A DNA stretch of 32,000 nt, taken from contig NZ_CP011035.1 of NCBI RefSeq assembly GCF_001465295.1, positions 480,001 to 512,000 of the forward strand, written 5' to 3'. The notes beneath the pieces are model-generated. The model saw nothing but the letters and a program-made list of their open reading frames with translations, did no database searches and had not been told where the DNA came from. Both the position numbers and the translations under genes were made by a program. The stretch comes from Pseudoalteromonas translucida KMM 520 (lineage in GTDB: Bacteria; Pseudomonadota; Gammaproteobacteria; Enterobacterales; Alteromonadaceae). This document shows positions 9,139-30,441 of the stretch, piece by piece. The stretch's first letter is position 1, and each line of letters opens with the position of its first letter.

Positions 9139-12100
9139 TTAGAAAGTGTAACGAACACCTACGCGCATTTCCCAAAGAGAAGCATCACGTTGCACGGTTG
9201 TATTGGCATTATTAGGATTGAAATCCGAATAAATATAACGACCTTGAGCGTCAACATCGGTTGTAATCATACGAGAACCAACAAATGGACCTTTCTTAAG
9301 AACACCCCAATCATCATTTAACATATTAGTTAAGTTATCGATAACAAAGAATGCCTCACCTTTGTGGCCATCCATAAATCCTGGGATTTCTTGGGTTAGC
9401 TTAAAGTTGAACTTAACGAACCAATCTGCATTTTGAGCATTACGCCCAGCAATTTCACCACGTTTAAGACCTTGTGATGCTATAAACTCATTAAATTCAG
9501 TAATTTCAGCTGCGCTCATATTGTAAATAACATTAGGATCGTTTTCTAATGGTACGTATAAAAGCTGACGAGAACGATTTGAGTTTGCATCGCCAAATGC
9601 GCCATCACTTCCATTAAATGTAAAGCTGTATGGTAAGCCTTTATATGCTTCACCGAATAGGTTGAAGCGCGTGTTATAGCCATTGAAAAATTCATGGGTA
9701 TAACCAAGGTTTAAAGTAAAGCGGTGTGGTATTTCATAATCAGACGATGCAACACCAGGGTTACCAGGGTTAGCAGTTGCTACATTACCATAGTTAGAAT
9801 CAGCAACAGAGCTGGTCATCGGGTTTACATCATCAGAATCAGTATAAGCATAAGAAAATTGAACTTTAATACCATTATCATAAGCTTTACTAATAGCTGC
9901 AGAAATAACAGATGATTGACCACTGCTTCCATCTACATTAGTTAGTAGTAAGTCGCCATCACGTCCTTCAATTGATTCGTATAATGGGCGGCCGTCAAAA
10001 CTCACATCGCCAGATGGACGAAGTGCGATATCTCTTAAAATAGCGGCATTACGCTTTTTGGTATAAAGGTAATCAAGCGCAATAACATATTCATCTTCAG
10101 TAGTATAAGTTGCACCAAGTGAGTACTTCCACTCAGATGGAATATCAAAACCAGGATCAACAGCTTTTACCGATGCATCACCAGAACCAGGCACTACACT
10201 AGCCACACCATCAAATAATTCTTGTGGAACTTCAAAACCAGGCTTACCACCATTCACATTAGGTGTGTTAAATAAGTCCACATTATTCATGCGAAGGCCA
10301 ATATTTGTAATACCGTCATTTGAATACGAGTTAGATAACCATACATTTGGGTTACCGCCTGAGAATAAACCCATGCCCGCACGCACTTCTAGTGCATCGG
10401 TGGCGTACCATTCAAAACCAACACGTGGTTGAATTAAATCAATGCCATCAAAGGTTGACTGGTTACTAAATCCATAACGGTCAGTAAAATTTTGATTAAG
10501 TGTTGGTTTATCATCACTGCTGTAGCTATCGTAACGTAAGCCAAAGGTTAGTGACGCATCAATATTTGAGAAGCTATACTCATCTTGAACATAAAAGGTA
10601 TTTTGTGAATAAGAAAAGTTAGCAGCGGCATCTGCAGGGTTATTAGTACCAGCGGCATTGTTATAATACACGCGCGAAGCTAAACCATTTTCAAAATCAT
10701 CAATAGATGCAAAACGCCATTCACCTTCAGTATGCTGAACAAACTGATTGAAGACTTCTAGCTCTTCATATTCAAAACCAGCAGTAATAGTATGCTGATC
10801 TAAGTAATATGTACCTGCTATTTTAGCTGTAATAGTATCGTAGTTTAAGTCATTTGATTGACGAGAGTCATCAGGACCAAGGTAGACAGTGCCACCGTCA
10901 GTTGCTTCAATTTGGAATTCGCCAAAACTACTTGCAGCATCTAGAGAGTTTACACGTGCATCGAGTTCAGATTTACCAAGGCGAACTTCTGTTGAAAAAC
11001 TATCGTTCCAATCTGAATATAATGAACCTACGATTGAGGTGAATTCAGCGCCTTGTTCAAAAAAATGGCTATCTAAAGATAAGCGAGTAGAACCAGTATC
11101 TGACTGAGATAATGTGTAACCATCATTATAATTATAAACTAAGTTTGCACGATGAGAGTCGTTAATGTTCCAGTCTAACTTTATTAATATTTTTTCATCT
11201 TCAACTGGTGAACTTGCAGGCATACCACCGGCATCATAACCATATACAGTTTGAGATATCTGTTTAATACGTTCTAAATCAGCACTAGATACACTTGAAC
11301 CTAAAGGATCATAATTAAACTGTGCAACACCTTCTAACTTTTCATATGAAGTGAATAAAAATAAAGTGTCTTGAATAAGGGGCAAACCAACGTTAAAGCC
11401 ATAACGCTTTTCGCTGAAGTCTCCGTTATCAACTTTTTCACCTTCAATTTTGTCGCCTTTCATTGAATCGTTGGTGTAATCGTAGAATACGGCACCATGA
11501 ATGTCATTGCCGCCAGACTTAGTTACTGCATTAATGTTACACGAGGTAAAACCACCGTATTGCACATTGAAAGGGGCTAATTCAACGGCTACTTGCTCAA
11601 TTGAGTCAAATGAAAACGGAGCGCGAATAGTTGGGTAGCCGTTAGAGCTTAAGCCGAAGTTGTCGTTCATACGAACGCCATCAAGCGTTAAGCTGTTAAA
11701 GCGAGGGTTACCACCGCCACAGTTAATTGAACCACGACTGTCATCAACAGCAACGCGTGGATCAATACGAATAATATCTTTTAAATCGCGGTTAATTGCA
11801 GGTTGGTTTTCAAGGTCATTAAGTGTGAATGTTGAAGCGGGCCCTGTACCACCAGACATAGTGCTGATAGCACGACCTGTTACTACAATTTGTTCAATAT
11901 TAGATTGTGGTGCAAGTGTTACATTTACAGGGTAATCACTGCCTATATTCAAAATAATATTATTAAATGTTTGGTCAGCATAAACATCTGAATCAACAAC
12001 AACTTTATATGGGCCGCCAACGCGAAGGCCTTTTGCAGTAAAGTAACCAGCGGCATTTACTTCGGTAGATTTAACTGAGCCAGAAGGAACATGTAAAATT

Positions 12101-12252
12101 GTTACTTTAGTTCCTTGTGCAGGGTTGCCATTAGGGCCCATTATCTGACCTTTAATTGCAGACGTTGTTTCGTTGGCGATTGCAGCACCACTTACTCCTA
12201 CACATGCTGCAATAGCGAGTGATAGAGCTGTTTTACGAAGTTGAGTTTTCAT
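9139..12252 (-). CDS. TonB-dependent receptor, Oar-like, with N-terminal carboxypeptidase-regulatory-like domain
   Basis: About 1037 aa with a signal peptide. The N-terminal domain includes GTKVTILHVPSG...GLRVGGPYKVVV. TonB-box-like IEQIVVTG and plug LDGVRMND are present. The C-terminus ends in the beta-barrel signature VGVRYTF. ATG 12252 (MKTQL) is preferred because GGGAAA lies upstream of it. Confidence 0.9.
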   Translation of the reverse strand: MKTQLRKTALSLAIAACVGVSGAAIANETTSAIKGQIMGPNGNPAQGTKVTILHVPSGSVKSTEVNAAGYFTAKGLRVGGPYKVVVDSDVYADQTFNNIILNIGSDYPVNVTLAPQSNIEQIVVTGRAISTMSGGTGPASTFTLNDLENQPAINRDLKDIIRIDPRVAVDDSRGSINCGGGNPRFNSLTLDGVRMNDNFGLSSNGYPTIRAPFSFDSIEQVAVELAPFNVQYGGFTSCNINAVTKSGGNDIHGAVFYDYTNDSMKGDKIEGEKVDNGDFSEKRYGFNVGLPLIQDTLFLFTSYEKLEGVAQFNYDPLGSSVSSADLERIKQISQTVYGYDAGGMPASSPVEDEKILIKLDWNINDSHRANLVYNYNDGYTLSQSDTGSTRLSLDSHFFEQGAEFTSIVGSLYSDWNDSFSTEVRLGKSELDARVNSLDAASSFGEFQIEATDGGTVYLGPDDSRQSNDLNYDTITAKIAGTYYLDQHTITAGFEYEELEVFNQFVQHTEGEWRFASIDDFENGLASRVYYNNAAGTNNPADAAANFSYSQNTFYVQDEYSFSNIDASLTFGLRYDSYSSDDKPTLNQNFTDRYGFSNQSTFDGIDLIQPRVGFEWYATDALEVRAGMGLFSGGNPNVWLSNSYSNDGITNIGLRMNNVDLFNTPNVNGGKPGFEVPQELFDGVASVVPGSGDASVKAVDPGFDIPSEWKYSLGATYTTEDEYVIALDYLYTKKRNAAILRDIALRPSGDVSFDGRPLYESIEGRDGDLLLTNVDGSSGQSSVISAAISKAYDNGIKVQFSYAYTDSDDVNPMTSSVADSNYGNVATANPGNPGVASSDYEIPHRFTLNLGYTHEFFNGYNTRFNLFGEAYKGLPYSFTFNGSDGAFGDANSNRSRQLLYVPLENDPNVIYNMSAAEITEFNEFIASQGLKRGEIAGRNAQNADWFVKFNFKLTQEIPGFMDGHKGEAFFVIDNLTNMLNDDWGVLKKGPFVGSRMITTDVDAQGRYIYSDFNPNNANTTVQRDASLWEMRVGVRYTF

Positions 12253-12511
12253 TTTTTTTCCCATGTAGTTTATTAAACTTTTTATATTTATAAAGTATTT
12301 GCACTAAACAAACGAACCAAATTCATGCAGTACTAAATCTATACATATTATACATTAGTTTATGTTTACAAATAAGCTACAAGTGTAATGTTTTTTTAAT
12401 ATTTATAGATTAATACTACGAATGATTGATGTTAATAATGAAATGTTCGTGTTGTAAAAGAGAGTAAATACTATTTATGACAAATAGATGAAAAAGGGAG
12501 TTTAAATGAAA

Positions 12512-12571: not shown

Positions 12572-15500
12572 TTAAAACTTATAGCTCACACCAATTTTAG
12601 CTTGCCATGCAGATGATGACGTAGAAATTTGGCTATAATTGCGTACATCAGCACCGTTATGACGATTGTTGATAATGTATCGGCCTTCATCATCTATTCC
12701 AGCTAGGTCATATACAGCTTGATCAGAGTAACCTAAACGCTTTTCAACACCCCAGTCGCTATTAAGTAAGTTAGCAAAGTTATCAATCATAAAGTAAACC
12801 TCACCTTTATGGCCTTCAGCAAAACCTGGGATCTCTTGTTTAACACTAATATCCATAGTCGTAACCCAAGGTTGAGTGCCTGTATTACGGTTTAGAATTT
12901 GGCCACGCTCAGAAATACCAGCACGGTTAAGTAGCGTTTCAAGTTCGCTCCACGACAAACCAGATTCATCCCAGTTTACATTTGCATCATCAGCACCCGT
13001 TGGGATGTATGCAAGGTAAGCCGAGTTTGAATAAAAGTCACGTGTATCGCCTAAATCATCTTTTTCATAAAGACCCATTGTATAGCTAAATGGGCGGCCA
13101 GAGCGACGCTCAAAGTACATGTTAAACTTGGTTTGGTAGCCAGAAAAAAGCTCAGTATTATAGCTCACATTAACCTTAAAGCTATGTTCCACTTCGTAAG
13201 CACCACGCTGTGCTAAATCAACATTACGGCTTTGTGTTAATGTATGTTTATAATTACTTTGTGCTTGTGATGATGAACCACCTGAAGCTTCTGTAATATC
13301 TTGATGTGCATAACTGGTCGATATATACAGGCCGTTATCCCATTCTTTAGCAAGAGCGGTAGAGAAGATTACCGAGCGCCCATCTTCAGCTGAGTTGGTC
13401 ATTGCTATATCAAAGTTATCTTTTAAGTCACCTTCGTAGATACCTTCATAAATAATACGATCGCCATCAGCGGTTGTACCAACAGGCTTGATTGCAGTGT
13501 TATGCCATACAGCCTCATTTTCTTTTTTATGGTAAGCAATTTCTGCTTGCCATTTAAAGCCATTACCTAAAAATTCTGAGTCAAATTCATAATCAAAACC
13601 AACTTGCGCACGGATGCTTGAAGGTAATTTAAAATTAGGATCAATATAGTTAGTGCTACCCGCACCTTGTACTAATGAACCTTTTATTTCGTCTGGAACT
13701 TGAGTGATATCAACAGGATTATTTGCGTAGTAACCATCAATTACGCTTTGTGGTGCATCAACAAAAGTAAGACCGTCTTTTTGGAATGAGTTGTTATACC
13801 AAACGTTAGGAATACCGCCTTGGAAACGACCTACGCCACCATTGATAGTAAGAGCCTCTGTTGCATAATATTTGAAACCAACACGAGGTAAAATAATATC
13901 TACACCATCAAGGTTTTCTTGGTTAGTAAAACCATAGGTTTCTAAAAACTTTTCATTCAATGTTGGTTTATCGTCAGACGCTAAACGCTCATAACGTACA
14001 CCCGCAGTTACTTCTAAATCATCAGTAGCATAAAACGTATCTTCTACGTAAAGAGCAAACTGACTGCGCGTTGCATCGTAAGCAGTATCTGCTGAGTTAT
14101 TGGTATAGGCATTACTGTAAGTAAAGTCATGTTTACCTTTGTAATTACCTACTTCGCGGTTTTCGAAACCAGCAAAGTTATCAAACTCCCATGAGCCTAA
14201 AGAGTTGGCTGCAAATAAATTATATAAATTTAAAGATTCATACTTAGCACCAAACTTAATTTGATGTTCGTCTAATAAGTATGTGCCATCAAAAGTTAGT
14301 GTTAAATTTTCAGTCGCTGCTTTATTGGCATGACGGTATTCATCAGTACCAAACTGATAAGCTGGTCCACGGAAATATTCTTCAACTTTAACACTACCAA
14401 TTTTAGAGTTAGTGATGCTGTCAGATGTTACATCTTTATAAGCAATACCAATTTCAGTAGAGAAGTCTTCATTCCAATCTGAGTAAAGCTTGGTAGCAAA
14501 GTTGTTGAATTTAGTCGCGTAAGTGTAACGATTTGAAGCAAGTGAAACGGTACTGCCACCAGTACCAAAATTACGCTCGTCTTTATCGTCTTGCCATTGG
14601 TATGTAAAGTCTAAACGATGGTCGTCGTTGATGTTCCAGCTTAACTTAACCAATAATGACTCATTGGTGTCTTTAGGGTCGCCACCAAGAGAATCTTGCA
14701 TACCGTACACGTTATCTAATATAGATAAAAACTGATCAAAGCTTTCTTTGGTTACATCGTATTCGTTTGCTGCGCCTGAGCCTTCAAAGCCATAGTCTAA
14801 ATCTAACTCGCTCTTCCATGCATTGTAGTTTACAAAGTAAAAAAGCTTATCCTCTAGTATTGGTCCGCCAAAGTTAAAACCGTAACGCGCTTCTGTTTGG
14901 ATTGGCTTTACTTGTTCAGTAACAAATGTTCTGTGGCCATCTTCATCTAAAGCCGGTCTGCCATTTGCGTATACTTGTGAAATACTATCAACATCACCCG
15001 CCATATCTGGAGTTGATGTTTCATAAAAGCCAGAAAACTTAAATTCGTTAGTACCTGACTTTGTTACTGCATTTATAGTACCGCCACCAAAGTTACCTTT
15101 AGCTGCTGAAAAAGGAGATACGTCTACAGAAATTTGTTCAATTGCATCAAGTGCAACAGGTGGCTGCGCTGTAGGGTAGCCGCCATAGTTCAAACCAAAA
15201 TCGTCGTTTTGGCCAATGCCATCAACAGTTAAGCTATTACTACGTGGATTATTACCAGCAAAGGTTAGCTCTCCATTACCGTTAATATTTGCAAGTGGGT
15301 TTAAGCGAGCAATATCTTTAATATCACGGTTAAAACTCGGCATGTTTTGAATTGTATCTTCGCCAAAAGAGCTGCTAGAACCGCCAGATTGTTGTACTAT
15401 TTTATAGCCAGAAACTTCAATTTTTTCCATGTTTAATGGTCTAAGCTGAGAGTTTAAGCGATAAGTATCACCTAATTCTAGGTAGATGTTTTCAAGCGTA

Positions 15501-15778
15501 GTATCGTTAAAAGTATCAGAGTCGATTATTACTGTATATGGACCCCCAACACGTAAACCGTTAGCTATAAAAGTACCACTTGAATTGGTTGTAAGTTCAC
15601 TTACAGTTCCAGTAGGACCATGAATAACTTTAATTTTTACATTTGCAGCACTTTCACCAGATGGAGTAGTGATTTTACCACGCATTGCAGATGACGTGTC
15701 AGCAGCCATAGCACTTGCAGAAACACCAAGAGCTAAAATAATTGCTCCGGTTAATTTCGAAAGGCGAAGTTTATTCAT
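12572..15778 (-). CDS. TonB-dependent receptor, Oar-like paralogue
   Basis: 1068 aa with the same architecture: IKVIHGPTG...GLRVGGPYTVII, MEKIEVSG, LTVDGIGQND, and the C-terminal IGVSYKF. It is clearly paralogous to 9139-12252. It starts 25 nt after the nuclease stop with no hairpin in between. Confidence 0.9.
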   Translation of the reverse strand: MNKLRLSKLTGAIILALGVSASAMAADTSSAMRGKITTPSGESAANVKIKVIHGPTGTVSELTTNSSGTFIANGLRVGGPYTVIIDSDTFNDTTLENIYLELGDTYRLNSQLRPLNMEKIEVSGYKIVQQSGGSSSSFGEDTIQNMPSFNRDIKDIARLNPLANINGNGELTFAGNNPRSNSLTVDGIGQNDDFGLNYGGYPTAQPPVALDAIEQISVDVSPFSAAKGNFGGGTINAVTKSGTNEFKFSGFYETSTPDMAGDVDSISQVYANGRPALDEDGHRTFVTEQVKPIQTEARYGFNFGGPILEDKLFYFVNYNAWKSELDLDYGFEGSGAANEYDVTKESFDQFLSILDNVYGMQDSLGGDPKDTNESLLVKLSWNINDDHRLDFTYQWQDDKDERNFGTGGSTVSLASNRYTYATKFNNFATKLYSDWNEDFSTEIGIAYKDVTSDSITNSKIGSVKVEEYFRGPAYQFGTDEYRHANKAATENLTLTFDGTYLLDEHQIKFGAKYESLNLYNLFAANSLGSWEFDNFAGFENREVGNYKGKHDFTYSNAYTNNSADTAYDATRSQFALYVEDTFYATDDLEVTAGVRYERLASDDKPTLNEKFLETYGFTNQENLDGVDIILPRVGFKYYATEALTINGGVGRFQGGIPNVWYNNSFQKDGLTFVDAPQSVIDGYYANNPVDITQVPDEIKGSLVQGAGSTNYIDPNFKLPSSIRAQVGFDYEFDSEFLGNGFKWQAEIAYHKKENEAVWHNTAIKPVGTTADGDRIIYEGIYEGDLKDNFDIAMTNSAEDGRSVIFSTALAKEWDNGLYISTSYAHQDITEASGGSSSQAQSNYKHTLTQSRNVDLAQRGAYEVEHSFKVNVSYNTELFSGYQTKFNMYFERRSGRPFSYTMGLYEKDDLGDTRDFYSNSAYLAYIPTGADDANVNWDESGLSWSELETLLNRAGISERGQILNRNTGTQPWVTTMDISVKQEIPGFAEGHKGEVYFMIDNFANLLNSDWGVEKRLGYSDQAVYDLAGIDDEGRYIINNRHNGADVRNYSQISTSSSAWQAKIGVSYKF

Positions 15779-15803: not shown

Positions 15804-16673
15804 TTACTTAGTTAGTTGTTTTTCGCTAGTTTGCATCTTAAGTGCACTGACTAACGGTGTTGCTGATTCATCAAATAAACTATTTAATAAACCTGCGAGT
15901 CTTATTCCGCTTTGTTGCAGCCGAATTTTAATTATTGGCATATGGTTAAAAATGTAACTATAGCTAATGTCTGTTTCGTTTTTATTATAAATTGATTCTG
16001 CTAAGTTGTTTGATTCTACTAACCAACTAGTAGGGTTACTGGTTAGGTACTCACTAATTAAGGTTTGATTATTAGTATTGATAAAGTCAGCAAATTCAGT
16101 ATATGAGAGGTTTTCACCTTCAATTAATTTACTGTCCCATAAACTGTGTAGGTTGGTTTCTTGACCAAAATGTTGCACCTTTATACGGTTACCACCGCGA
16201 TCATCTGCACGCCCAGCATGAAAAGGCTGATGGCTGTCGCCTACTAAGTGTACTAAAAAGCGTAAACTAAACTGTTTAGCATCTAATGAACTTTGCTCGT
16301 CTTGAAGTACTTTAATTGAGTAATGAATGCCTTCAAGGATGTTGGTAACAGATTCTTTATTTTTTGTATGAGAATGATTGAGTGAAATAGGCTTGTTTGC
16401 AGATGTATTAATATAATGCCAGCGTGATGATTTTCTTTGCCAAAACTCACCAGGAGCAGAGCGCATTTCATCTGGCCAAGTAGACACTTGTGCTAAAGAT
16501 TCATTATTTAATAACGGAAAAAGTTTTGTTTTTGTTGTTTCACTAAGATGAGACTCTGCAATTTTAGCTATGATCCTGTGTCCATTTTGACCCCATGCAT
16601 GAGCATTAGTACAAACAAGTACAGCGCTGACGACCAGCGTTGCTTTAACTGAGGACATTAAGTTGTTACGCAT
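15804..16673 (-). CDS. Secreted S1/P1-family zinc nuclease
   Basis: A signal peptide is followed by WGQNGHRIIAKIAESHL...STWPDEMR...RWHYIN...FLVHLVGDSHQPFHAG...GGNRIKV...NLHSLWDSKLIE, which carries the family's metal-ligand motifs. AGGA lies 7 nt upstream of ATG 16673. Confidence 0.85.
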   Translation of the reverse strand: MRNNLMSSVKATLVVSAVLVCTNAHAWGQNGHRIIAKIAESHLSETTKTKLFPLLNNESLAQVSTWPDEMRSAPGEFWQRKSSRWHYINTSANKPISLNHSHTKNKESVTNILEGIHYSIKVLQDEQSSLDAKQFSLRFLVHLVGDSHQPFHAGRADDRGGNRIKVQHFGQETNLHSLWDSKLIEGENLSYTEFADFINTNNQTLISEYLTSNPTSWLVESNNLAESIYNKNETDISYSYIFNHMPIIKIRLQQSGIRLAGLLNSLFDESATPLVSALKMQTSEKQLTK

Positions 16674-16818
16674 TTGGTTTCCTTCAAATTATTATAGGGT
16701 CAAAATCACTAATCCGGTCAATTGTCCTTGTTTATTAGTGGGATAGGAAGGCGTTAATAACATTCATATTAACTTGTGGGTAAGTCATTTAAATCAATAG
16801 CTTGTATTTGATAGGTAA

Positions 16819-16842
16819 AATTACTTATTGCAATAAGTAATT
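16819..16842. promoter_or_regulatory. Perfect 24-bp palindrome AATTACTTATTGCAATAAGTAATT in the divergent intergenic region
   Basis: Exact self-complementarity read directly from the sequence. It lies between the nuclease/TBDR unit (minus) and the PhnD-like/wHTH-like pair (plus). The confidence value refers to an operator function; the palindrome itself is certain. Confidence 0.5.
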
Positions 16843-16876
16843 AAAATTGTTCAAATGGGGTAATAATAATATTAGG

Positions 16877-17776
16877 ATGTTTTGTTTGAACATTAAATGC
16901 GTCATTTACAATAAAATGCTGTTAATTGTATTTTTATATTTGTTAATTGTTTTAGTGTGGGTGTGTGGTCAGCTGAGTGTTGATAGCAGTGAATTACGCT
17001 TTGTAAAATTAATAGAAACATCAATTGAATGCCAAACATCTGTAATTAAAAATGAAAACCAGTTAATCATCTTTGCGCCATCAAAAAAAATAGCAGGTAC
17101 ATTAGCACATAGCTTGTGTACAGATGATGTGGTAGCTAAGCAATACGGTGCGGTTGTAAGTTACTGGCGCTATAACACGACGGAGAGCTTTGAATTTGTA
17201 GGAAAAGGCATTGCAGATCTTATTTTAACTAAAAACAATATTATGGAAGCATTTAAAGCCGAGGCTACCTATAACTACCAGCCTGTAGTTGGGTTTTCTG
17301 ATTACACTGCATTTTTTATTTCGGCTAAAGAAAAACCTAAAATAACAAAAGAGTACTTTTTAGGTAAGCGTATTGGATTATTAGATTATCCAACCAGTCG
17401 CTCAGGGCATATATTGCCAAAGCAAGTATTTAAAGAGTTGGATATTAACCTCGAAAACTTAAATATTGTTTATGCCAGCTCTCATGATGCGTTACGTGAT
17501 TTATTGGCTAACGGCAAAGTTGATCTTATAGCTTCATTTTGGCAAGAAAGTGATACAAAACGCTTTTCAAAAAACTATATTACACCGCTAAAAAATAACA
17601 TTGCAGGCACGCGCTGGTATTTAAAAATGCCACACAATAATACCGATTTATTGTGCTCGGTACAGGCGCATTTATTAGCCATGTCGCAAGAGCAATCTCT
17701 TCATTACTATAAAGGTGCGCAGTCATTTTGGCAGTGTGATAACGACGTTGTAACTTATAAGCGAGATGCAATATGA
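16877..17776 (+). CDS. Membrane-anchored periplasmic binding protein, PhnD-like (phosphonate-binding type 2 PBP fold)
   Basis: The N-terminus has one hydrophobic segment, LLIVFLYLLIVLVWV. GKRIGLLDYPTSRSGHILPKQVFKELDINLENLNIVYASSHDALRDLLANGKVDLIASFW matches the core pattern of the PhnD / Phosphonate-bd family. The start is uncertain: TTG 16847, ATG 16877 or ATG 16916. Confidence 0.55.
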   Translation: MFCLNIKCVIYNKMLLIVFLYLLIVLVWVCGQLSVDSSELRFVKLIETSIECQTSVIKNENQLIIFAPSKKIAGTLAHSLCTDDVVAKQYGAVVSYWRYNTTESFEFVGKGIADLILTKNNIMEAFKAEATYNYQPVVGFSDYTAFFISAKEKPKITKEYFLGKRIGLLDYPTSRSGHILPKQVFKELDINLENLNIVYASSHDALRDLLANGKVDLIASFWQESDTKRFSKNYITPLKNNIAGTRWYLKMPHNNTDLLCSVQAHLLAMSQEQSLHYYKGAQSFWQCDNDVVTYKRDAI

Positions 17777-18720
17777 GTAAGCAGATACTTTCATTTATTA
17801 CGCTATTAATTTTTTTGTTACTTTGTAGCGTATTTTATTACTCAGTAAGCTATAAACAACAGCAAGTGCAAAAGCTTAATATAGCCACGATAGAAAAGCA
17901 GGTAGCGCTGGATTTACCTTTACTCGAGCTATCTAATGAACTGCTTAAGTACTCCAGTAATATAGATAATATAAATAGTTATTTAGAGCAGTTAAATTCG
18001 CAGCTAGTCGGCACTAATTTGTTATTGTTAAATATTGTCGCTGATAAAAAGCTATCAACCACATTAACCGAAGCGCAGTTTTTTACGCGTTTAACGACTA
18101 GTATTGGCCCTGTTTTTTTAGTTTTTGATATAAAACCACAGCCATGGCCGTGGCGTTATATTTATTATTATGTCGCTATTTTTATTTTAAGTGCTTTTGT
18201 GAGCTACTGGCTGAAAACAGTCATTACAATAGAGCAAAAAAGTAAGCAATTAGCTACGCTGCAGCCTGAACCTGTTGAGGAAAGTAAATCACCCGTGTTA
18301 GTTATTAATCTAAATACTAAAACGGTGTCAGTTAATATTAATCCGCAATACCAAGTATGTTTAGCAAATAAACCTCTTAGCTTTTATTTAGCGCTTATTG
18401 AATTTTGTAACAGTAATAGCGATGTTGTGCTTAGCCATAATAAAGATGTACCTGATGAGCTGATTGAATTAGCTAATAAATATTTTTATCGACTGGTGGA
18501 GCTGGGGCACACGATCCGCAAGCGCCCTAACTTTAACAATAGTCTTGAAAAAACATTGAGCGAAATACGCGCGGCGTTAGATGAAGTGTTAAGTGAATAC
18601 CCGCAACAAAAAGAAATTTTTTATCCGCCTAAGGCATTTGGAGAGGGTTCTCGTTCGCGGCTTCACAGTTACGGGTTAGTTAATATTGCTAAAGGCGATT
18701 TAGAAATAGTAGGCAAGTAA
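17773..18720 (+). CDS. Two-TM membrane protein with C-terminal OmpR/PhoB-like winged-helix region (tentative)
   Basis: Its ATG overlaps the upstream stop as ATGA. TM1 is FITLLIFLLLCSVFYY, followed by a loop of about 105 aa, then TM2 YIYYYVAIFILSAFVSYWL. The C-terminal 150 aa, VLVINLNTKTVSVNINPQYQVCLANKPLSFYLALIEFCNSNSDVVLSH...SLEKTLSEIRAALDEVL...YGL, aligns by eye to OmpR effector-domain elements. This has not been verified. Confidence 0.5.
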   Translation: MSKQILSFITLLIFLLLCSVFYYSVSYKQQQVQKLNIATIEKQVALDLPLLELSNELLKYSSNIDNINSYLEQLNSQLVGTNLLLLNIVADKKLSTTLTEAQFFTRLTTSIGPVFLVFDIKPQPWPWRYIYYYVAIFILSAFVSYWLKTVITIEQKSKQLATLQPEPVEESKSPVLVINLNTKTVSVNINPQYQVCLANKPLSFYLALIEFCNSNSDVVLSHNKDVPDELIELANKYFYRLVELGHTIRKRPNFNNSLEKTLSEIRAALDEVLSEYPQQKEIFYPPKAFGEGSRSRLHSYGLVNIAKGDLEIVGK

Positions 18721-18753: not shown

Positions 18754-20370
18754 TTATTTAGGGGCGAACTGGGCCGCATCTATCGGGCTGTGCTCTGCAA
18801 AAAAGCGCTTTAATGCGTTAGAGTCTGTTTCATCGGTGACTACGAAACCTTTTGCTGTGGTTAGTGCAGGGTAGCCATCACCACCTGAGGCGTTAAAGTT
18901 ATTAATGCTCATACGGTAAGTTTTACTTTTATCTAATGCTTGCCCATTTATTAATATCTTTACTAAGGAGTTGTTTTTATGCTCAAACGATAATTTGTGG
19001 TACTGCATGTAAGCGCCGGAATCAGGCGGAAAACGCGTTACAACTTCTAAATATTGCCATAAATCTTCTCCTGCAATATCGATATAAGCCACTCGATTTT
19101 GAAACGGTTGGGCTTTTAAAATATCTTTATAACTTACTTCGCCTGCAGCAATACTGTCGCGTACACCGCCGCCACTCATAATGCCAAAGTCAGCATCGGT
19201 ACTGTTCATTTGTGCTTGAATAATAACGCGGGCTAAATTTGTTTGTTGGTAGCGTACTTTATTACGGTCGCCTTCAAGTCTGGCATTTACATAGCCAATT
19301 TTACCTTCAATTTGTTTAGCGCCTTTTTCCTGATACTCGGCTAAAAATGCGTTTAACTGTGGATTCGGCTCAATGTACTCGTTAGCTAATAGACTCGATG
19401 TTGTGCCATCCGCGTTTTGTTTATCAACATATAAATTAACGGGTAGCAGTTTATAACTTAAGAGAGTTAGCTGGCCATTTTCAAGTTTAAATTCGGCTTT
19501 ACCAACATATTTACCCCATTCGTGGGCTTGCATTATCCAAGTGCCATTTTGTTGATCGGGCGTGCAGGCTAGACCAGGTTTAAAGTTATCGTCATTTACG
19601 TTTTTAGCCGCCATACATACAGGCTCTTGAGAGTGACCACCGATGATCATATCTAAGGTATTAGTTGGCAGTGAACGCGCAAGTGTTACATCCCCAGGCG
19701 CATTAATTGCGTGGCTAGCATCCACATAATGCCCCATATGAGTGAGCGCAATGGTAATGTCGGGATTATATTGTGCTTTAATTTTTTGTGCTAATTGCGC
19801 CGTGATCTCAATCGGATCTTTAAACTCTAATTGGCGAATATATTCGGGATTACCTATTTTGGCTGTATCAGTGGTGGTTAAACCTATAACAGCAATACTC
19901 AGCCCATTTTTGTTAAATACTTTATAGCTATCAAATACATTTTCACCGGTCGATTTTTCAAATATATTTGCCGACAAAAAAGGAAAGTTAGCCCATTGCT
20001 GTTGCTTTTTAAGTACGCTCATCGGGTTATCAAATTCATGATTTCCAAGGGCCATCGCATCATAGCCAATTAACGACATGCCTTTGAAGTCGGGTTCAGC
20101 GAATTGTAAATCTGACTCTGGAATACCGGTATTTATATCGCCACCAGACAGCAGCAGTACTGCGTGTCCCTGCGCGATTGCTTTGTTGCGTAGCGAGTCA
20201 ATCAGGGTTTTACGGGCAGCCATGCCGTATTCACCTTTTTCATTGTGCCAAAAGCGGCCATGATTATCGTTAGTATGCAGTACGGTTAAATATTGTGGGG
20301 CGGGGCTGGTGAGTGTAGTACTACACCCAAGTACACTAAAAGCAATGACAAACAAAAAAATTATGCGCAT
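18754..20370 (-). CDS. ushA: 5'-nucleotidase / UDP-sugar hydrolase, lipoprotein form (UshA/NutA-like)
   Basis: LTVLHTNDNHGRFW, LLSGGDINTG and GNHEFD are metallophosphoesterase motifs, and the C-terminal 5'-nucleotidase domain is present. The lipobox is SVLGCS. I prefer ATG 20370 (MRIIFLFV) because AGGTG lies 4 nt upstream. The track start at 20394 is a GTG. Confidence 0.9.
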   Translation of the reverse strand: MRIIFLFVIAFSVLGCSTTLTSPAPQYLTVLHTNDNHGRFWHNEKGEYGMAARKTLIDSLRNKAIAQGHAVLLLSGGDINTGIPESDLQFAEPDFKGMSLIGYDAMALGNHEFDNPMSVLKKQQQWANFPFLSANIFEKSTGENVFDSYKVFNKNGLSIAVIGLTTTDTAKIGNPEYIRQLEFKDPIEITAQLAQKIKAQYNPDITIALTHMGHYVDASHAINAPGDVTLARSLPTNTLDMIIGGHSQEPVCMAAKNVNDDNFKPGLACTPDQQNGTWIMQAHEWGKYVGKAEFKLENGQLTLLSYKLLPVNLYVDKQNADGTTSSLLANEYIEPNPQLNAFLAEYQEKGAKQIEGKIGYVNARLEGDRNKVRYQQTNLARVIIQAQMNSTDADFGIMSGGGVRDSIAAGEVSYKDILKAQPFQNRVAYIDIAGEDLWQYLEVVTRFPPDSGAYMQYHKLSFEHKNNSLVKILINGQALDKSKTYRMSINNFNASGGDGYPALTTAKGFVVTDETDSNALKRFFAEHSPIDAAQFAPK

Positions 20371-20456
20371 AAAACACCTATTGATTAAAAGCACTTACGT
20401 TTATTGGCGCATAGTTTAACTAGTTTGCTACAAAAACACACTTTTACATTCTTTAA

Positions 20457-20633
20457 TCACACTTTAATTTTTTTAGTAGCAGCTAACTCTCTGCGTTTTA
20501 GCTCTTCGCTGGCATATTTGGCTTTTTGATGATTAATACCTACCATCCAGATTAAAAAACTAGCAGGTAAGCGTGTGTAGGGCTCTCCCTTATGCAAACC
20601 AAAATCACAAATTTGGTTGTTTTTTTCTGACAT
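20457..20633 (-). CDS. DUF3820 family small protein
   Basis: MSEKNNQICDFGLHKGEPYTRLPASFLIWMVG fits the F-G-K-x-K-G...LP..YL.W pattern of DUF3820. GGAG lies 8 nt upstream of ATG 20633. The track N-terminal extension back to 20762 is hydrophobic and low-complexity, and I reject it. Confidence 0.65.
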   Translation of the reverse strand: MSEKNNQICDFGLHKGEPYTRLPASFLIWMVGINHQKAKYASEELKRRELAATKKIKV

Positions 20634-20945
20634 TACAATTCTCCATTTACGAATTTGCAGAGGAATCATAACAAAAATAAAACAATTTATAAGTGTATTC
20701 TCATTAAACGACAACTTTATGTGTATTGATATAGCTATTATTTGCTGCTTTTTTAAAGACATTAAATTAATCAGCGTTTTTACAGGGATAAGTTCAGCAG
20801 GAAGGCGATAAAATGTAATTAAGTTGTAACTGACTTGGTTTGAATTGTATCGGAAACTATTTTTCAGTCGATTTTTAGTCTTACTCGCATTACTCTAAGT
20901 ATCACTAAATTTTACACTTAAATAAAATAATAATAGGGAAAAACG

Positions 20946-27561: not shown

Positions 27562-28176
27562 TTATTTAAACCGCGTTTGTTCAATTTTCTTGGCTACTGC
27601 TAGGTTGATTTCTTGCCAGGTTTTTTCAAGCGTTGCTACCAGCGCATCATAGCCGTCACCGTCGAGTTGCGTTACATTAGCAAAATTATGCAAACTTAAT
27701 AAGCGTCGGCCTGTTTCGGGATGGGTATAATATAAACGCCATAGCCCAGATATATCTGCGTTGCCTTGTAGGTCGCCATTAAAATGATGAATTTCATATT
27801 CTAATTCATAAAAAGTTTGTTGATCTAGCTCGGTGATCACCGGTAAACCTTTTATTACCATCCAGTTAGGTAGGGCATTAAAGAGTATTTGTTGTGCACT
27901 TACGGTGAGCATCGAATCAGGTGACTCACCCCATAAATGGTAGTTTGCAGCATGAATTTGATTGTGATCTATTTTCATCGCAATGCCGCGATTATTTAAG
28001 GCACCTCTTAGTACAACTGTTTGTACTCTTAATTGCGCATCAGTTGCACTTACATCTCTAGAGGAGGCAACAATAGGTTGTTCAAACTGATAATACGCGA
28101 TGGCAGTTTGAATTGATGAACTACAACCGCTAAGCAGTAAAGCGAGTAAAATAACAAAAAAAGATGATTTAACCAT
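27562..28176 (-). CDS. pqiC: PqiC-like lipoprotein (ABC-type transport auxiliary component, YmbA family)
   Basis: The lipobox is LLLSGCSS. It is 204 aa. Its ATG overlaps the pqiB stop as TAATG. It sits immediately downstream of the MCE-domain gene. Confidence 0.8.
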   Translation of the reverse strand: MVKSSFFVILLALLLSGCSSSIQTAIAYYQFEQPIVASSRDVSATDAQLRVQTVVLRGALNNRGIAMKIDHNQIHAANYHLWGESPDSMLTVSAQQILFNALPNWMVIKGLPVITELDQQTFYELEYEIHHFNGDLQGNADISGLWRLYYTHPETGRRLLSLHNFANVTQLDGDGYDALVATLEKTWQEINLAVAKKIEQTRFK

Positions 28177-29102
28177 TATTGCTTCCTTGGTTTTGGGTCT
28201 GCGGGTAATGCTTTATCAAATATAAACATATTAGGCTGCTCATTTAGGCCTTTAGTTAGCGGCTGTAGCTGCTCACTTAAACGTTTAAACTCTTGCAAGG
28301 TTTGCTGTAGCTGATTATTAAACTGCGAACCTGCTTGGTAGCTGGCCATGGTTTTATCAAATTGGCGCATAGTGACTTCAAATTGTTCCATACTCTTGGT
28401 CATTTTTTTGAAGTTTTGATTAAAGTCACCCGGTAAATTTTGTGTGTCTTTTTGGTTTAGCAAATCGCGCATGTCGTTGGCCAACCCTTGGTAGTCGCTA
28501 AAAGTGGCTTGCATTTGTGCTAAGCTATCTTCGATTTTTAGCTCGTTTACCTTATTAAGTACATCAGAAACCTGATCGGCTAATACTGTAATACCGCTAG
28601 ATATACTTGGAAAAACATCATATTGAGCCAGCTTTTCTAGTTTTGCATCAGGCGCATCGGTATAAATGTCAAAGTCGACATACACGGCACCGGTAAGTAA
28701 ATTACCCGGTTTAAGCGAAGCGCGCATGCCATTGTTTACCCAGCCATTTAAACTCGTTTGCCAATACTCTTTAGCTAAATCGTTATCGTGGTACAAGCGC
28801 CCATATTCTATTTTAATAAGCACAGGTACAGCCGTATTGTGGTTTTTAAAGTGAGCTGGTTTGCCGTTAATAATCACATTGGCAGGGGCTTCTACTACTG
28901 TACCAATTCGCGTTCCTCGGTATTCAACCGGAGCGCCAGCGCGCAGGCCACGAATTGATTGCTCAAACTCAATAAGATAGTAGTCAAAGTCGTAAAAACG
29001 CTCTTCTAGTGCTTCTTTATAGCTTTGACTAAGCGAAAAACTATGCTCATTTTGGGCAATATCGCCAGGGGCTTGTTGATCGGGTAAGCCCACCGATATA
29101 CC
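28176..29102 (-). pseudogene. pqiB: pqiB 3' fragment (MCE-domain protein, C-terminal about 304 codons) cut off by the IS insertion
   Basis: The frame continues exactly from the 5' fragment once the IS and one copy of the target duplication are removed (...KGGISV|GLPDQQAPGD...). The apparent GTG start at 29093 lies inside the target duplication, so it is an artefact of the track. Confidence 0.85.
29091..29102. repeat. Target-site duplication, left copy (CACCGATATACC)
   Basis: An identical 12-mer occurs at 30529-30540. Each copy directly abuts an IS terminal inverted repeat. Confidence 0.9.
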
Positions 29103-29106
29103 TAAT

Positions 29107-29138
29107 GCCAGTCAGTTAACACTGACTGGCTTTTTTTT
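29107..29138 (+). terminator. Inward-facing terminator-like hairpin at the IS left end
   Basis: GCCAGTCAG (29107-29115), loop TTAACA, CTGACTGGC (29122-29130), then T8 (29131-29138) on the plus strand. It overlaps the transposase stop codon on the other strand. Confidence 0.5.
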
Positions 29139-30437: not shown

Positions 30438-30441
30438 AAAA

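What the first reader, a model, noticed from the sequence alone, without database searches (positions are those of the whole stretch)
16847..18720. Uncharacterised two-gene membrane module: anchored PhnD-like binding protein plus 2-TM protein with a C-terminal OmpR-like winged helix (candidate undescribed co-component signalling system)
These are the only two sizeable genes in the window without a clear family-level function.

- **Coupling:** the two genes overlap as ATGA (17773-17776), which suggests translational coupling.
- **Gene 1:** one N-terminal hydrophobic anchor followed by a type-2 periplasmic binding fold of the PhnD kind. That domain is otherwise seen as an ABC-transporter binding protein or as the sensor domain of kinases and cyclases.
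- **No usual partners:** no permease, ATPase, kinase or GGDEF gene lies adjacent.
- **Gene 2:** TM, a loop of about 105 aa, TM, then about 150 cytoplasmic residues. By eye these follow the OmpR/PhoB effector pattern: a beta-hairpin (VLVINLNTKTVSV), a helix (PLSFYLALIEF) and a recognition-helix-like LEKTLSEIRAALDEVL, with an insertion.
- **Why it is unusual:** a membrane-tethered wHTH at the C-terminus is the reverse of the ToxR/CadC/TcpP/VtrA arrangement. A dedicated periplasmic ligand-binding partner recalls ToxS/VtrC-type co-components.
- **Context:** the pair sits between a nuclease/TonB-receptor unit and a 5'-nucleotidase, behind a perfect palindrome. That fits a sensor of a phosphorus- or nucleotide-related ligand controlling those genes.
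Basis: partly seen in the sequence, partly recalled or inferred. Interest (0 to 1): 0.78.

Follow-up and report, generated by a model that had tools for sequence, protein, structure and literature searches.

The report
Membrane-tethered regulator with binding-protein partner
Two overlapping genes, always inherited together in marine Alteromonadales, most likely form an undescribed sensor: a periplasmic binding protein paired with a two-pass membrane protein whose cytoplasmic tail looks like a ToxR/OmpR-type DNA-binding domain, and they always sit beside genes for scavenging extracellular DNA and nucleotides.

Summary
Two ORFs, 16847/16877-17776 and 17773-18720, overlap in ATGA.

- **Gene 1:** an N-terminal hydrophobic segment followed by a PhnD-type binding domain, just above the Pfam cut-off.
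- **Gene 2:** no hit in Pfam, NCBIfam or PDB sequences. It has two TM segments around a loop of about 103 aa, and the positive-inside rule puts both ends in the cytoplasm.
- **C-terminal domain:** residues 170-315 give a confident AlphaFold model (pLDDT 88.5). Its only structural neighbours in the PDB are ToxR DNA-binding domains (prob 0.85, TM 0.49, E 0.15). A profile-profile comparison with OmpR-family domains is co-linear (P 0.0044; 0 of 150 shuffles reach it). This is moderate, sub-threshold support for a cryptic winged helix.
- **Coupling:** all 79 loci with enough flank keep the pair adjacent, as does a member only 21% identical.
- **Context:** in four genera the pair lies divergent from a TonB-dependent receptor plus a secreted nuclease, S1/P1 or EEP depending on genus, next to UshA or NupC/Udk/PafA-like genes.
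- **Palindrome:** part of a ~115-bp upstream element conserved across genera and found only there.

Best reading: a new transmembrane transcription regulator with a binding-protein co-sensor controlling a nucleic-acid scavenging locus. DNA binding, ligand and regulon are untested.

The parts
16877..17776 (+). Gene 1: periplasmic PhnD-type binding protein. It has an N-terminal hydrophobic segment (signal peptide or anchor, not resolved). The longest ORF starts at TTG 16847.
   Evidence: - Pfam PF12974 28.7 bits, cut-off 27.
- The family has four invariant Cys and an invariant DYPTSRSGHILP loop.
- Homologues are about 286-300 aa.
17773..17776 (+). ATGA stop/start overlap of the two genes.
   Evidence: - ORF coordinates.
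- The genes also overlap in L001 (8 nt), L060 (11 nt), L082 (4 nt) and L085 (13 nt).
17773..18720 (+). Gene 2: 315-aa two-pass membrane protein with a cytoplasmic C-terminal ToxR/OmpR-like domain.
   Evidence: - No Pfam, NCBIfam or PDB sequence hit.
- Small family: 94 clusters at 50% identity among 1.84 billion proteins.
- Relatives in 227 species genomes.
17785..17853 (+). TM1 (about aa 5-27).
   Evidence: Hydropathy.
17854..18156 (+). Periplasmic loop domain (about aa 28-128; 90-117 aa across the family). It carries the conserved EK.IALDLP...Y...LN motif and is the proposed docking site for gene 1's product.
   Evidence: - Positive-inside rule.
- Conservation.
- The full-length model gives helices plus three strands here, pLDDT about 70-85.
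18157..18222 (+). TM2 (about aa 129-150).
   Evidence: Hydropathy.
18223..18294 (+). Poorly conserved juxtamembrane linker (about aa 151-174).
   Evidence: - Variable columns in A1 and A2.
- pLDDT below 50 at aa 163-171.
- Much longer and low-complexity in P0303 and P0317.
18295..18717 (+). Highly conserved cytoplasmic domain (aa 175-315): a three-stranded sheet, helix 1, helix 2, a basic loop GHTIRKRP, helix 3 (LEKTLSEIRAALDE), an extra helix, then the GEGSRSR.H.Y.L segment. It is a cryptic ToxR/OmpR-like winged helix.
   Evidence: - AF2 pLDDT 88.5.
- Foldseek top hits are all ToxR DNA-binding domains.
- hhalign P 0.0044, and 0 of 150 shuffles reach the score.
16742..16860 (.). Non-coding element of about 115 bp upstream of gene 1, conserved across genera. 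Blocks: ATAGrAAGG, ATTCATAwyTTCTT, ATCAAT, GTAAnATTACyTATTG-N4-AAGTAA, TGnTCaAAT.
   Evidence: - Alignment of 76 distinct Pseudoalteromonas intergenic regions.
- The same blocks occur in Lacimicrobium and Paraglaciecola.
- No Rfam match.
16819..16842 (.). Perfect 24-bp palindrome AATTACTTATTGCAATAAGTAATT. It is a candidate operator. Its centre, TTGCAA, may double as a -35 box 17 bp upstream of the conserved TGTTCAAAT.
   Evidence: - Palindrome.
- The relaxed motif occurs in 58 of 79 loci, and only at this position.
- The promoter reading is inference; the consensus scan did not call it.
16716..16727 (.). Second conserved imperfect palindrome GGTCAATTGTCC, nearer the S1/P1 nuclease start. Seen in Pseudoalteromonas only.
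15804..16673 (-). S1/P1 nuclease, divergent from the pair. Proposed target gene.
   Evidence: Pfam PF02265, 224.8 bits.
12572..15778 (-). TonB-dependent receptor 2 (CarboxypepD_reg + OMP_b-brl_4), 25 bp downstream of the nuclease gene. Absent from some Pseudoalteromonas loci.
9139..12264 (-). TonB-dependent receptor 1. It is the closest match (43-51% identical) to the single receptor that lies divergent from the pair in Lacimicrobium and Paraglaciecola; Bowmanella has a receptor of the same domain type there.
18754..20394 (-). UshA (periplasmic 5'-nucleotidase / UDP-sugar hydrolase), convergent with gene 2.
   Evidence: NCBIfam NF007109 equivalog, 815.6 bits against a cut-off of 600.

Best explanation
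The two genes encode a two-protein transmembrane sensor-regulator.

**Proposed mechanism**
1. Gene 1's product is exported to the periplasm. There it binds a small anionic ligand, most plausibly a phosphoryl-bearing product of extracellular nucleic-acid breakdown such as a nucleotide or short oligonucleotide.
2. It docks on the ~100-residue periplasmic loop of gene 2's product.
3. Gene 2's product spans the inner membrane twice. It carries a ToxR/OmpR-like winged-helix DNA-binding domain on a flexible cytoplasmic linker.
4. The state of the binding protein changes the oligomeric state or orientation of the membrane protein.
5. The tethered domains then bind the conserved AT-rich element in the divergent promoter region.
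6. This controls the pair's own operon and the divergent nuclease / TonB-dependent receptor operon. The adjacent nucleotide-processing genes may also be controlled.

**Shown**
- Gene architecture.
- Strict co-inheritance of the pair, and overlap of the two genes in every locus where it was checked.
- Family-wide charge bias consistent with an in-out-in topology.
- A confident fold model whose only PDB neighbours are ToxR domains.
- A weak but co-linear profile match to Trans_reg_C.
- A conserved genomic theme.
- A conserved cis element.

**Inferred**
- DNA binding.
- The protein-protein contact.
- The identity of the ligand.
- The direction of regulation.
- Which cis element is bound.
For: **Pairing**
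- PhnD-type gene 1 sits directly upstream of gene 2 in all 79 loci with enough flank.
- It also does so in the most divergent member: gene 2 21% identical, gene 1 homologue 29% identical with E 7e-45, and a 4-nt overlap.

**Periplasmic location of gene 1's product**
- An N-terminal hydrophobic segment and four invariant Cys.

**Topology of gene 2's product**
- K+R 5.6 against 2.8; 49 of 57 sequences agree.

**DNA-binding fold**
- AF2 pLDDT 88.5, pTM 0.84.
- Foldseek ranks 1-7 and 9 are all ToxR DNA-binding domains, prob up to 0.85, TM 0.44-0.50.
- ToxR also appeared with the poor full-length model.
- hhalign against Trans_reg_C gives score 21.8 and P 0.0044 over 76 co-linear columns. The family's invariant R266 aligns with the invariant Arg of the OmpR-family helix 3.
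- Shuffled controls: mean 11.7, maximum 21.1, 0 of 150 reach the real score.
- Divergent members carry S-x-K-E/H-F-A-F-Y-x-A-L-L, like the OmpR-family LTxKEFxLLxxL motif.

**Linker**
- Variable, low confidence, and expanded to low-complexity sequence in some members, as in CadC (PMC5430869).

**Context**
- Pseudoalteromonas: S1/P1 nuclease, receptor(s) and UshA.
- Lacimicrobium, Paraglaciecola and Bowmanella: an EEP nuclease and receptor lie divergent from the pair.
- In Lacimicrobium and Bowmanella, Udk, NupC, a 2OG oxygenase and a PafA-like phosphatase follow downstream.
- The nuclease family differs between genera but the theme is kept.

**Cis element**
- About 115 bp conserved across genera where gene 2 is only ~40% identical.
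- The palindrome motif is found only there.

**Precedents**
- CadC binds a quasi-palindromic AT-rich site head-to-head (PMC5430869).
- ChiS binds DNA from the membrane under the control of a periplasmic binding protein.
Against: **Weak statistics for the winged helix**
- No family member matches Pfam Trans_reg_C, even at E up to 10.
- Profiles of the family find no OmpR-family chain in the PDB.
- Foldseek E-values are 0.15-3 and TM scores are below 0.5.
- hhalign probability is only 7.8%.
- An HMM of Trans_reg_C against the 68 members gives a best E of 0.045.

**Weak points in the model**
- The segment that should form the wing (aa ~285-310) is modelled as coil with pLDDT about 60.
- An extra helix lies between helix 3 and that segment.

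**Gaps in the target-gene argument**
- The divergent locus L082 shows no receptor or nuclease within 8 kb.
- The conserved element is absent upstream of that pair.

**Open points**
- Nothing shows which protein binds the palindrome.
- The PhnD assignment of gene 1 is marginal: 28.7 bits against 27, and the family profile finds nothing in the PDB.
- No contact between the two proteins could be modelled here.
Confidence: 0.5

Rival explanations
1. The pair is a membrane complex with a non-transcriptional role in nucleic-acid scavenging. One example: the binding protein captures nucleotides or oligonucleotides brought in by the receptor, and the two-pass protein anchors or organises periplasmic enzymes or transport. 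Its C-terminal domain would then bind a protein or a small molecule rather than DNA.
For: - Every match to DNA-binding domains is below the usual significance thresholds.
- The wing is not confidently modelled.
- The genomic context fits a role in uptake as well as a role in regulation.
Against: - Two TM helices do not make a permease.
- The most conserved part is cytoplasmic and rich in invariant basic residues: K200, R249, K260, R266, R294.
- Its only structural neighbours are DNA-bound ToxR domains.
- None of the conserved locus types examined contains another regulator that is always present. MarR and ArgR genes are seen only in some.
Confidence: 0.2
2. Gene 2's product is a membrane-tethered regulator as proposed, but the palindrome at 16819-16842 is the operator of a different, soluble dimeric regulator, or is simply promoter sequence. 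Gene 2's product would bind elsewhere, for example at the other conserved blocks.
For: - Most OmpR-family proteins bind direct repeats (general knowledge).
- The palindrome centre TTGCAA lies 17 bp upstream of the conserved TGnTCAAAT and could be a -35 box (inference).
- Three further conserved blocks upstream (ATAGrAAGG, ATTCATAwyTTCTT, ATCAAT) are not palindromic.
- The centre of the palindrome varies between genera.
Against: - The element travels with the pair across genera and is found nowhere else in 1.33 Mb of locus DNA.
- No other regulator gene is conserved with it.
- CadC, a membrane-bound OmpR-type protein, binds head-to-head on a quasi-palindromic AT-rich site (PMC5430869).
Confidence: 0.25
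3. Gene 1 encodes an ordinary phosphonate/phosphite ABC-transporter binding protein whose permease and ATPase lie elsewhere. Gene 2 would be an unrelated hypothetical membrane protein that merely sits next to it.
For: The only family-level hit for gene 1 is the ABC-transporter family PF12974 / TIGR01098.
Against: - The genes are adjacent in every locus checked, down to 21-29% identity, and overlap wherever this was examined.
- No phnC/phnE-type genes appear in any locus examined.
- The score is far below the TIGR01098 cut-off: 24.9 bits against 112.
Confidence: 0.05

Closest known systems
ToxR/ToxS and VtrA/VtrC co-component systems (Kinch et al. 2022, PMC9214523)
   Same: - Two partly overlapping genes.
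- One encodes a membrane-tethered OmpR-type winged-helix regulator without kinase or receiver.
- The other encodes a periplasmic sensing partner.
- ToxR's DNA-binding domain is the closest structural neighbour of gene 2's C-terminal domain.
   Different: - Here the DNA-binding domain is C-terminal, after two TM helices and a periplasmic loop. ToxR and VtrA have an N-terminal domain and a single TM.
- The partner is a PhnD-type type-2 binding protein, not a lipocalin-like ToxS/VtrC.
- The partner gene is upstream, not downstream.
- There is no detectable sequence homology by HMM.
CadC (with LysP) of E. coli
   Same: - A membrane-integrated OmpR-type regulator.
- A disordered linker between the membrane and the DNA-binding domain.
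- Head-to-head binding on an AT-rich quasi-palindromic site (PMC5430869).
- Co-sensing through a second protein.
   Different: - CadC has an N-terminal DNA-binding domain, one TM and a large periplasmic pH-sensing domain.
- Its co-sensor LysP is a permease, not a periplasmic binding protein.
ChiS with chitin-binding protein CBP of Vibrio cholerae
   Same: - A periplasmic solute-binding protein controls a membrane-embedded protein.
- That protein has a periplasmic domain flanked by TM segments and a cryptic C-terminal DNA-binding domain missed by standard domain models.
- It regulates a nutrient-polymer utilisation locus from the membrane (papers listed).
   Different: - ChiS is a large hybrid sensor kinase with HK and receiver domains and its own type of DNA-binding domain.
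- Gene 2's product has none of these.
- ChiS does not appear among its structural neighbours.
Binding-protein-dependent sensor kinases such as TorT/TorS and LuxP/LuxQ (from my own knowledge)
   Same: A dedicated periplasmic binding protein, encoded next to the sensor and lacking a transporter, docks on the periplasmic domain of a two-TM sensor.
   Different: Their output is a histidine kinase and phosphorelay. Here the output domain is the DNA-binding domain itself.
PhnD phosphonate/phosphite ABC-transporter binding proteins (PF12974)
   Same: - Type-2 binding fold family.
- The Ser/Thr-rich loop TSRSGH aligns with ASTSSH of the solved PhnD chain 5jvb.
   Different: - No ABC permease or ATPase partner.
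- Scores are marginal.
- Four invariant Cys.
- Always paired with gene 2.
DNA-utilisation loci (ddbABCDEF) of gut Bacteroidales (bioRxiv 10.1101/2025.03.18.642099)
   Same: A locus that combines secreted nucleases with a TonB-dependent outer-membrane transporter for the use of exogenous DNA.
   Different: - A different phylum and different proteins.
- That work's abstract and section headings mention no regulator of this kind.
- DNA use by the locus studied here is inferred from gene content only.

Membership tests
OmpR/PhoB-type winged helix (Pfam Trans_reg_C, PF00486) | Sequence match to the family HMM at or above the gathering score. | tested here: not met
   - No hit for the window protein.
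- No Trans_reg_C hit in any of 68 family members at E up to 10.
- A home-made Trans_reg_C HMM gives a best E of 0.045 among the 68.
OmpR/PhoB-type winged helix (Pfam Trans_reg_C, PF00486) | Fold: an N-terminal antiparallel sheet, three helices with helix 3 as the recognition helix, and a C-terminal hairpin wing. | tested here: inconclusive
   - The confident model has three strands, then helices 1 to 3, in the right order.
- Foldseek's top eight relevant hits are all ToxR DNA-binding domains: prob up to 0.85, TM 0.44-0.50, E 0.15-2.9.
- The wing is not confidently modelled, and there is an extra helix.
OmpR/PhoB-type winged helix (Pfam Trans_reg_C, PF00486) | Profile-profile similarity to the family. 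| tested here: inconclusive
   - hhalign score 21.8, P 0.0044, probability 7.8%, over 76 co-linear columns.
- 0 of 150 block-shuffled controls reach it; reversed controls score 14.3 and 17.2.
OmpR/PhoB-type winged helix (Pfam Trans_reg_C, PF00486) | Sequence-specific DNA binding. | not testable with these tools
   Needs EMSA, footprinting or ChIP.
ToxR-like / co-component transmembrane regulators | An N-terminal cytoplasmic winged helix, a single TM and a C-terminal periplasmic domain. | tested here: not met
   Two TM segments with a periplasmic loop and a C-terminal cytoplasmic domain.
ToxR-like / co-component transmembrane regulators | A partner gene that overlaps or abuts the regulator gene and encodes a membrane-anchored lipocalin-like periplasmic protein. 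| tested here: not met
   The genes do overlap, but the partner is a PhnD-type binding protein encoded upstream.
Transmembrane transcription regulators in the broad sense (PMC10269533) | One polypeptide with at least one TM segment and a DNA-binding domain that acts from the membrane. | tested here: inconclusive
   - TM segments are met.
- The DNA-binding domain is supported only at fold level.
- That survey identified DNA-binding domains by domain family, citing Pfam. A protein with no Pfam domain hit would probably not have been counted (inference).
PhnD-family ABC-transporter binding protein | Match to PF12974 / TIGR01098. | tested here: met
   - PF12974 28.7 bits against a cut-off of 27.
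- TIGR01098 24.9 bits against 112, so not met for that narrower model.
- Many homologues carry a precomputed PF12974 assignment.
PhnD-family ABC-transporter binding protein | Encoded with an ABC permease and ATPase (phnC/phnE type). | tested here: not met
   None in the window or in loci from four genera.
Two-component sensor histidine kinase | HisKA/HATPase_c catalytic core after the second TM. | tested here: not met
   No such Pfam or NCBIfam hits. Only the TM-loop-TM sensor topology is shared.

The most novel reading that the evidence does not exclude
This is a previously unrecognised family of transmembrane transcription regulators. It has a sensor-kinase-like TM-loop-TM topology, but a cryptic ToxR-like winged helix directly replaces the kinase. 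It obligately uses a transporter-less PhnD-type periplasmic binding protein as its ligand receptor. It would be the master switch of an Alteromonadales 'DNA/nucleotide utilisation locus' made of a TonB-dependent receptor, a secreted nuclease and nucleotidases. It would sense nucleic-acid breakdown products in the periplasm.
Probability: 0.4. Interest if true: 0.72.

Novelty: new variant of a known kind. Interest (0 to 1): 0.6.

Why it matters
**Signalling.** If correct, this adds a new architecture to the short list of regulators that bind DNA while embedded in the membrane. The simplest possible output, a tethered winged helix, would be grafted onto the input logic of binding-protein-dependent sensor kinases. 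It would also show that surveys based on Pfam DNA-binding domains miss such proteins.

**Ecology.** It would identify the regulator, and through gene 1 a route to the inducing ligand, of a conserved gene set. Marine Alteromonadales probably use that set to harvest extracellular DNA or RNA and nucleotides. Extracellular DNA is a major phosphorus, nitrogen and carbon source in the sea floor (PMC8289736, abstract).

**Experimental access.** The system is compact: two genes and one ~200-bp divergent promoter with a sharply defined conserved element. That makes it easy to test.

Tried and rejected
- **Sequence searches with gene 2.** Pfam, NCBIfam and PDB sequence searches found nothing, whether with the protein, a 23-sequence profile or a 45-sequence domain profile. 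The best PDB hits were ryanodine receptor noise.
- **Full-length AlphaFold model.** Poor in the C-terminal half (pLDDT 55-65), and Foldseek on it was uninformative. The domain-only model was needed.
- **Third homology search.** Spent on the divergent member P0315; it returned only itself. It did, however, unlock its contig.
- **Gene 1 profile against the PDB.** No hit. The single sequence had given E 0.018 to a PhnD chain.
- **Rfam scan of the intergenic region.** No match, so the conserved 115 bp is not a known RNA.
- **Extra copies of the conserved blocks.** Searched elsewhere in the window, including upstream of receptor 1 and ushA; none found.
- **Promoter consensus scan.** Three weak sites, no more than in shuffles. 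The -35/-10 assignment is therefore my inference from conservation.
- **FecR/FecI-type transducer system.** Considered and rejected. The receptors carry a CarboxypepD_reg domain, no signalling-domain hit was listed, and no ECF sigma factor lies adjacent.
- **Lipoprotein anchor for gene 1.** Considered and rejected. VWVC is not a canonical lipobox (sequence inspection).
- **Two points set aside by inspection only.**
  - A CytR-type operator: the palindrome contains TTGCAA, but its centre is GC rather than CG and is not conserved.
  - A Pho box: none is visible.


Full report
**1. What is in the sequence**

Two + strand ORFs occupy the reported interval: 16847-17776 (309 aa from TTG) and 17773-18720 (315 aa). 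They overlap as ATGA.

Gene 1 probably starts at ATG 16877, for two reasons:
- Its 97%-identical homologue is 299 aa.
- 16847-16860 belongs to a conserved non-coding block.

The perfect palindrome AATTACTTATTG/CAATAAGTAATT lies at 16819-16842.

- S1/P1 nuclease, 15804-16673 (-).
- Two TonB-dependent receptors of the CarboxypepD_reg/OMP_b-brl_4 type, 12572-15778 and 9139-12264 (-).
- A UshA equivalog, 18754-20394 (-), at 815.6 bits against a cut-off of 600.

No ABC permease or ATPase, kinase or GGDEF gene occurs anywhere in the window.

**2. Gene 1**

- It matches Pfam Phosphonate-bd just above the gathering score (28.7 against 27).
- It matches TIGR01098 far below its cut-off.
- It matches one solved PhnD chain at E 0.018. 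That alignment places the loop TSRSGH against ASTSSH.
- A 22-sequence family alignment shows an N-terminal hydrophobic segment preceded by Lys/Arg, four invariant cysteines and an invariant DYPTSRSGHILP motif. These features fit an exported, disulfide-bonded protein.
- Whether the hydrophobic segment is cleaved or serves as an anchor could not be decided.
- In PhnD-type proteins the Ser/Thr-rich loop contacts the phosphoryl oxygens (my own knowledge). Its conservation suggests an anionic, phosphoryl-bearing ligand. This is inference.

**3. Gene 2: family and topology**

- The protein hits nothing in Pfam, NCBIfam or the PDB by sequence.
- It belongs to a small family: 94 clusters at 50% identity among 1.84 billion proteins, nearly all about 310 aa with the same layout.
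- Relatives occur in 227 species-representative genomes. The best 80 are Pseudoalteromonas, Lacimicrobium and Paraglaciecola.
- Hydropathy gives two TM segments (about aa 5-27 and 129-150) around a loop of 90-117 aa.
- Across 57 members with two clear TM calls, K+R within 15 residues averages 5.6 on the N-terminal plus post-TM2 side and 2.8 on the loop side. 49 of the 57 are biased this way.
- Both termini should therefore be cytoplasmic and the loop periplasmic.
- After TM2 comes a variable linker of about 25 residues with low model confidence. It is expanded to 70-90 low-complexity residues in P0303 and P0317.
- The linker is followed by the most conserved part of the protein, aa 175-315.

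**4. Is the C-terminal domain a winged helix?**

*Structure*
- The full-length model was poor in this region.
- A model of aa 170-315 built with a 45-sequence alignment is confident (pLDDT 88.5, pTM 0.84).
- It shows three strands, helix 1, helix 2, a basic loop, helix 3, a short extra helix, a long coil and a final strand.
- Foldseek against the PDB returns V. cholerae ToxR DNA-binding domains at ranks 1-7 and 9. The best is prob 0.85, TM 0.49 normalised by target, and rmsd 3.9 A over 101 columns, with E 0.15-2.9. Every other hit has prob 0.04 or less.

*Profile comparison*
Ten of them were confirmed as Trans_reg_C at 71-105 bits. I aligned all 13.
- hhalign against the family alignment gives score 21.8, P 0.0044 and 76 co-linear columns.
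- The paired segments are:
  - VLVINLNTKTVSV with the N-terminal sheet;
  - LANKPLSFYLALIEF with helix 1;
  - SLEKTLSEIRAALDEV with the recognition helix.
- The family's invariant R266 aligns with the invariant Arg of the OmpR-family LRxK motif.
- 150 block-shuffled versions of the OmpR alignment score 11.7 +/- 2.4 (maximum 21.1). Reversed alignments score 14.3 and 17.2, over about 22 columns only.
- The most divergent members carry S-x-K-E/H-F-A-F-Y-x-A-L-L, close to the OmpR-family LTxKEFxLLxxL motif.

*Against*
- No member reaches Pfam Trans_reg_C, even at E 10.
- A Trans_reg_C HMM against the 68 members peaks at E 0.045, against 1.2 for reversed sequences.
- hhalign's calibrated probability is 7.8%.
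- The presumed wing (GEGSRSR.H.Y.L, with invariant G290, G292 and R294) is not confidently modelled.

My reading is that this is a divergent ToxR/OmpR-like winged helix, with a probability of about 0.7. It is not a Pfam-level member of the family.

**5. Coupling of the two genes**

- tblastn with the window's proteins against 81 fetched loci finds gene 1's homologue immediately upstream of gene 2's in every locus with enough flank.
- The genes overlap in every locus where I checked called genes or ORFs.
- The most divergent member found, P0315 (21% identical, from a metagenome), still has an overlapping upstream gene. That gene is 29% identical to gene 1 (E 7e-45) and hits Phosphonate-bd weakly.
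- Such strict co-inheritance with overlapping stop and start codons argues for a stoichiometric complex.

**6. Genomic theme**

- Pseudoalteromonas arrangement: receptor(s) and S1/P1 nuclease, divergent from the pair, with ushA convergent. Some species lack receptor 2, so a receptor of the receptor-1 type abuts the nuclease.
- In Lacimicrobium and Paraglaciecola the pair lies divergent from a receptor 43-51% identical to receptor 1, followed by an Exo_endo_phos nuclease (checked in Lacimicrobium sp. SS2-24 and Paraglaciecola). Bowmanella has the same receptor type and nuclease.
- In Lacimicrobium (L060) and Bowmanella, the genes downstream of the pair are uridine kinase, a NupC-type nucleoside transporter, a 2OG oxygenase and a PafA-like phosphatase or phosphodiesterase.
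- The nuclease family and the nucleotide-processing genes differ between genera. The theme of secreted nuclease, outer-membrane receptor and nucleotide or nucleoside processing is kept.
- This is good guilt-by-association evidence that the pair belongs to a nucleic-acid scavenging system.
- Nuclease-plus-TonB-transporter loci for DNA use are known in Bacteroidales. UshA-dependent use of extracellular DNA as a phosphate source is known in Vibrio (PMC4714964, listed).
- No regulator of the present kind turned up in my literature searches.

**7. The cis element**

- Aligning 76 distinct Pseudoalteromonas intergenic regions shows about 115 conserved bp just upstream of gene 1.
- The same blocks are present in Lacimicrobium and Paraglaciecola, where gene 2 is only ~40% identical.
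- The blocks are ATAGrAAGG, ATTCATAwyTTCTT, ATCAAT, GTAAnATTACyTATTG-N4-AAGTAA and TGnTCaAAT.
The outer arms TTACyT/ArGTAA are conserved while the centre varies.
- The relaxed motif occurs in 58 of 79 loci, always at this position, and nowhere else in 1.33 Mb.
- None of the blocks recurs elsewhere in the window. There is no Rfam match.
- The conserved TGnTCAAAT may be an extended -10. The palindrome centre TTGCAA may be a -35 at 17-bp spacing. This is my inference; the consensus scan did not call it.
- A protein bound to the palindrome would then sit on the -35 region.
- OmpR-family proteins mostly bind direct repeats. However, membrane-bound CadC binds head-to-head on an AT-rich quasi-palindrome (PMC5430869). 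A palindrome is therefore compatible with the model.
- Which protein binds remains unknown.

**8. Mechanism proposed**

The steps are those listed under the best explanation.
- The binding protein reports a periplasmic nucleic-acid breakdown product to the loop of the membrane protein.
- Oligomerisation or re-orientation then lets the tethered winged helices engage the conserved element.
- This controls the divergent nuclease/receptor operon and the pair's own operon.
- The architecture, pairing, topology bias, fold neighbours, context and cis element are shown.
- DNA binding, the protein contact, the ligand and the sign of regulation are inferred.
- Overall confidence is 0.5.

**9. Comparison with known systems and novelty**

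- The system works like ToxR/ToxS, VtrA/VtrC, CadC/LysP and especially ChiS/CBP.
- It fails the defining architectural features of the ToxR-like and co-component class: an N-terminal domain, a single TM and a lipocalin partner.
- It lacks the kinase and receiver domains of ChiS.
- It is best described as a new variant of the transmembrane transcription regulator with a co-sensor. It is carried by an unannotated protein family restricted, as far as seen, to Alteromonadales.
- The published survey of such regulators identified DNA-binding domains by domain family, citing Pfam (PMC10269533). It would probably have missed this family.

**10. Verdict**

- Interest is moderate to high (0.6). The system is compact and testable, and it links an unusual signalling architecture to marine DNA and nucleotide scavenging. 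Its central claim of DNA binding rests on sub-threshold similarity.

Noticed in passing
window 27562-32000: An IS4-family transposase ORF (29112-30437, -) lies between two MlaD-domain ORFs (30526-31269 and 28176-29093). PqiA (31266-32000) is upstream and a PqiC-like lipoprotein (27562-28176) is downstream. This looks like an insertion sequence splitting pqiB of a pqiABC operon.
   Followed up: no
window 20457-20762 (-), conserved part about 20457-20630: A small ORF between ushA and the cyclophilin gene is conserved in most Pseudoalteromonas loci (44-78% identity over about 45-90 aa by tblastn). It has no Pfam hit. Function unknown.
   Followed up: partly
window 12572-15778 compared with loci L014-L017, L022, L024, L029, L030 and others: The second TonB-dependent receptor (receptor 2) is present in only some Pseudoalteromonas species. 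In the others a receptor of the receptor-1 type directly follows the S1/P1 nuclease gene and a MarR gene lies beyond it. The locus has therefore gained or lost a receptor paralogue.
   Followed up: partly
L060 2374-3615, L079 2448-3623, L085 5301-6467 compared with window 15804-16673: The nuclease next to the conserved receptor belongs to a different family in different genera. It is Exo_endo_phos in Lacimicrobium, Paraglaciecola and Bowmanella, and S1/P1 in Pseudoalteromonas. This is a non-orthologous replacement within one functional locus.
   Followed up: partly
window 16716-16727: A second imperfect palindrome, GGTCAATTGTCC, lies about 45 bp upstream of the S1/P1 nuclease start. It is conserved across Pseudoalteromonas but was not seen in the other genera.
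   Followed up: partly
P0303 (400 aa) and P0317 (377 aa), relatives of gene 2: The linker between TM2 and the C-terminal domain is expanded to about 70-90 residues of Pro/Ala-rich or acidic low-complexity sequence. This fits a flexible tether.
   Followed up: no
window 416-3385: An ECF sigma factor (2861-3385), an RskA-type anti-sigma factor (2181-2909, overlapping it) and a 530-aa DUF4331 protein (416-2008) lie on the - strand. This is another uncharacterised module in the window.
   Followed up: no
window 3741-5369 (+): A 542-aa fusion of a dual-specificity phosphatase domain with a diacylglycerol-kinase/YegS-type lipid kinase domain.
   Followed up: no
L082 2765-4150 (-): In the metagenomic contig carrying the most divergent pair, a nearby gene fuses a DprA (DNA_processg_A) domain to a HAD phosphatase domain, next to a phosphoribosyltransferase gene. 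This is a different, possibly still nucleotide-related, context.
   Followed up: no
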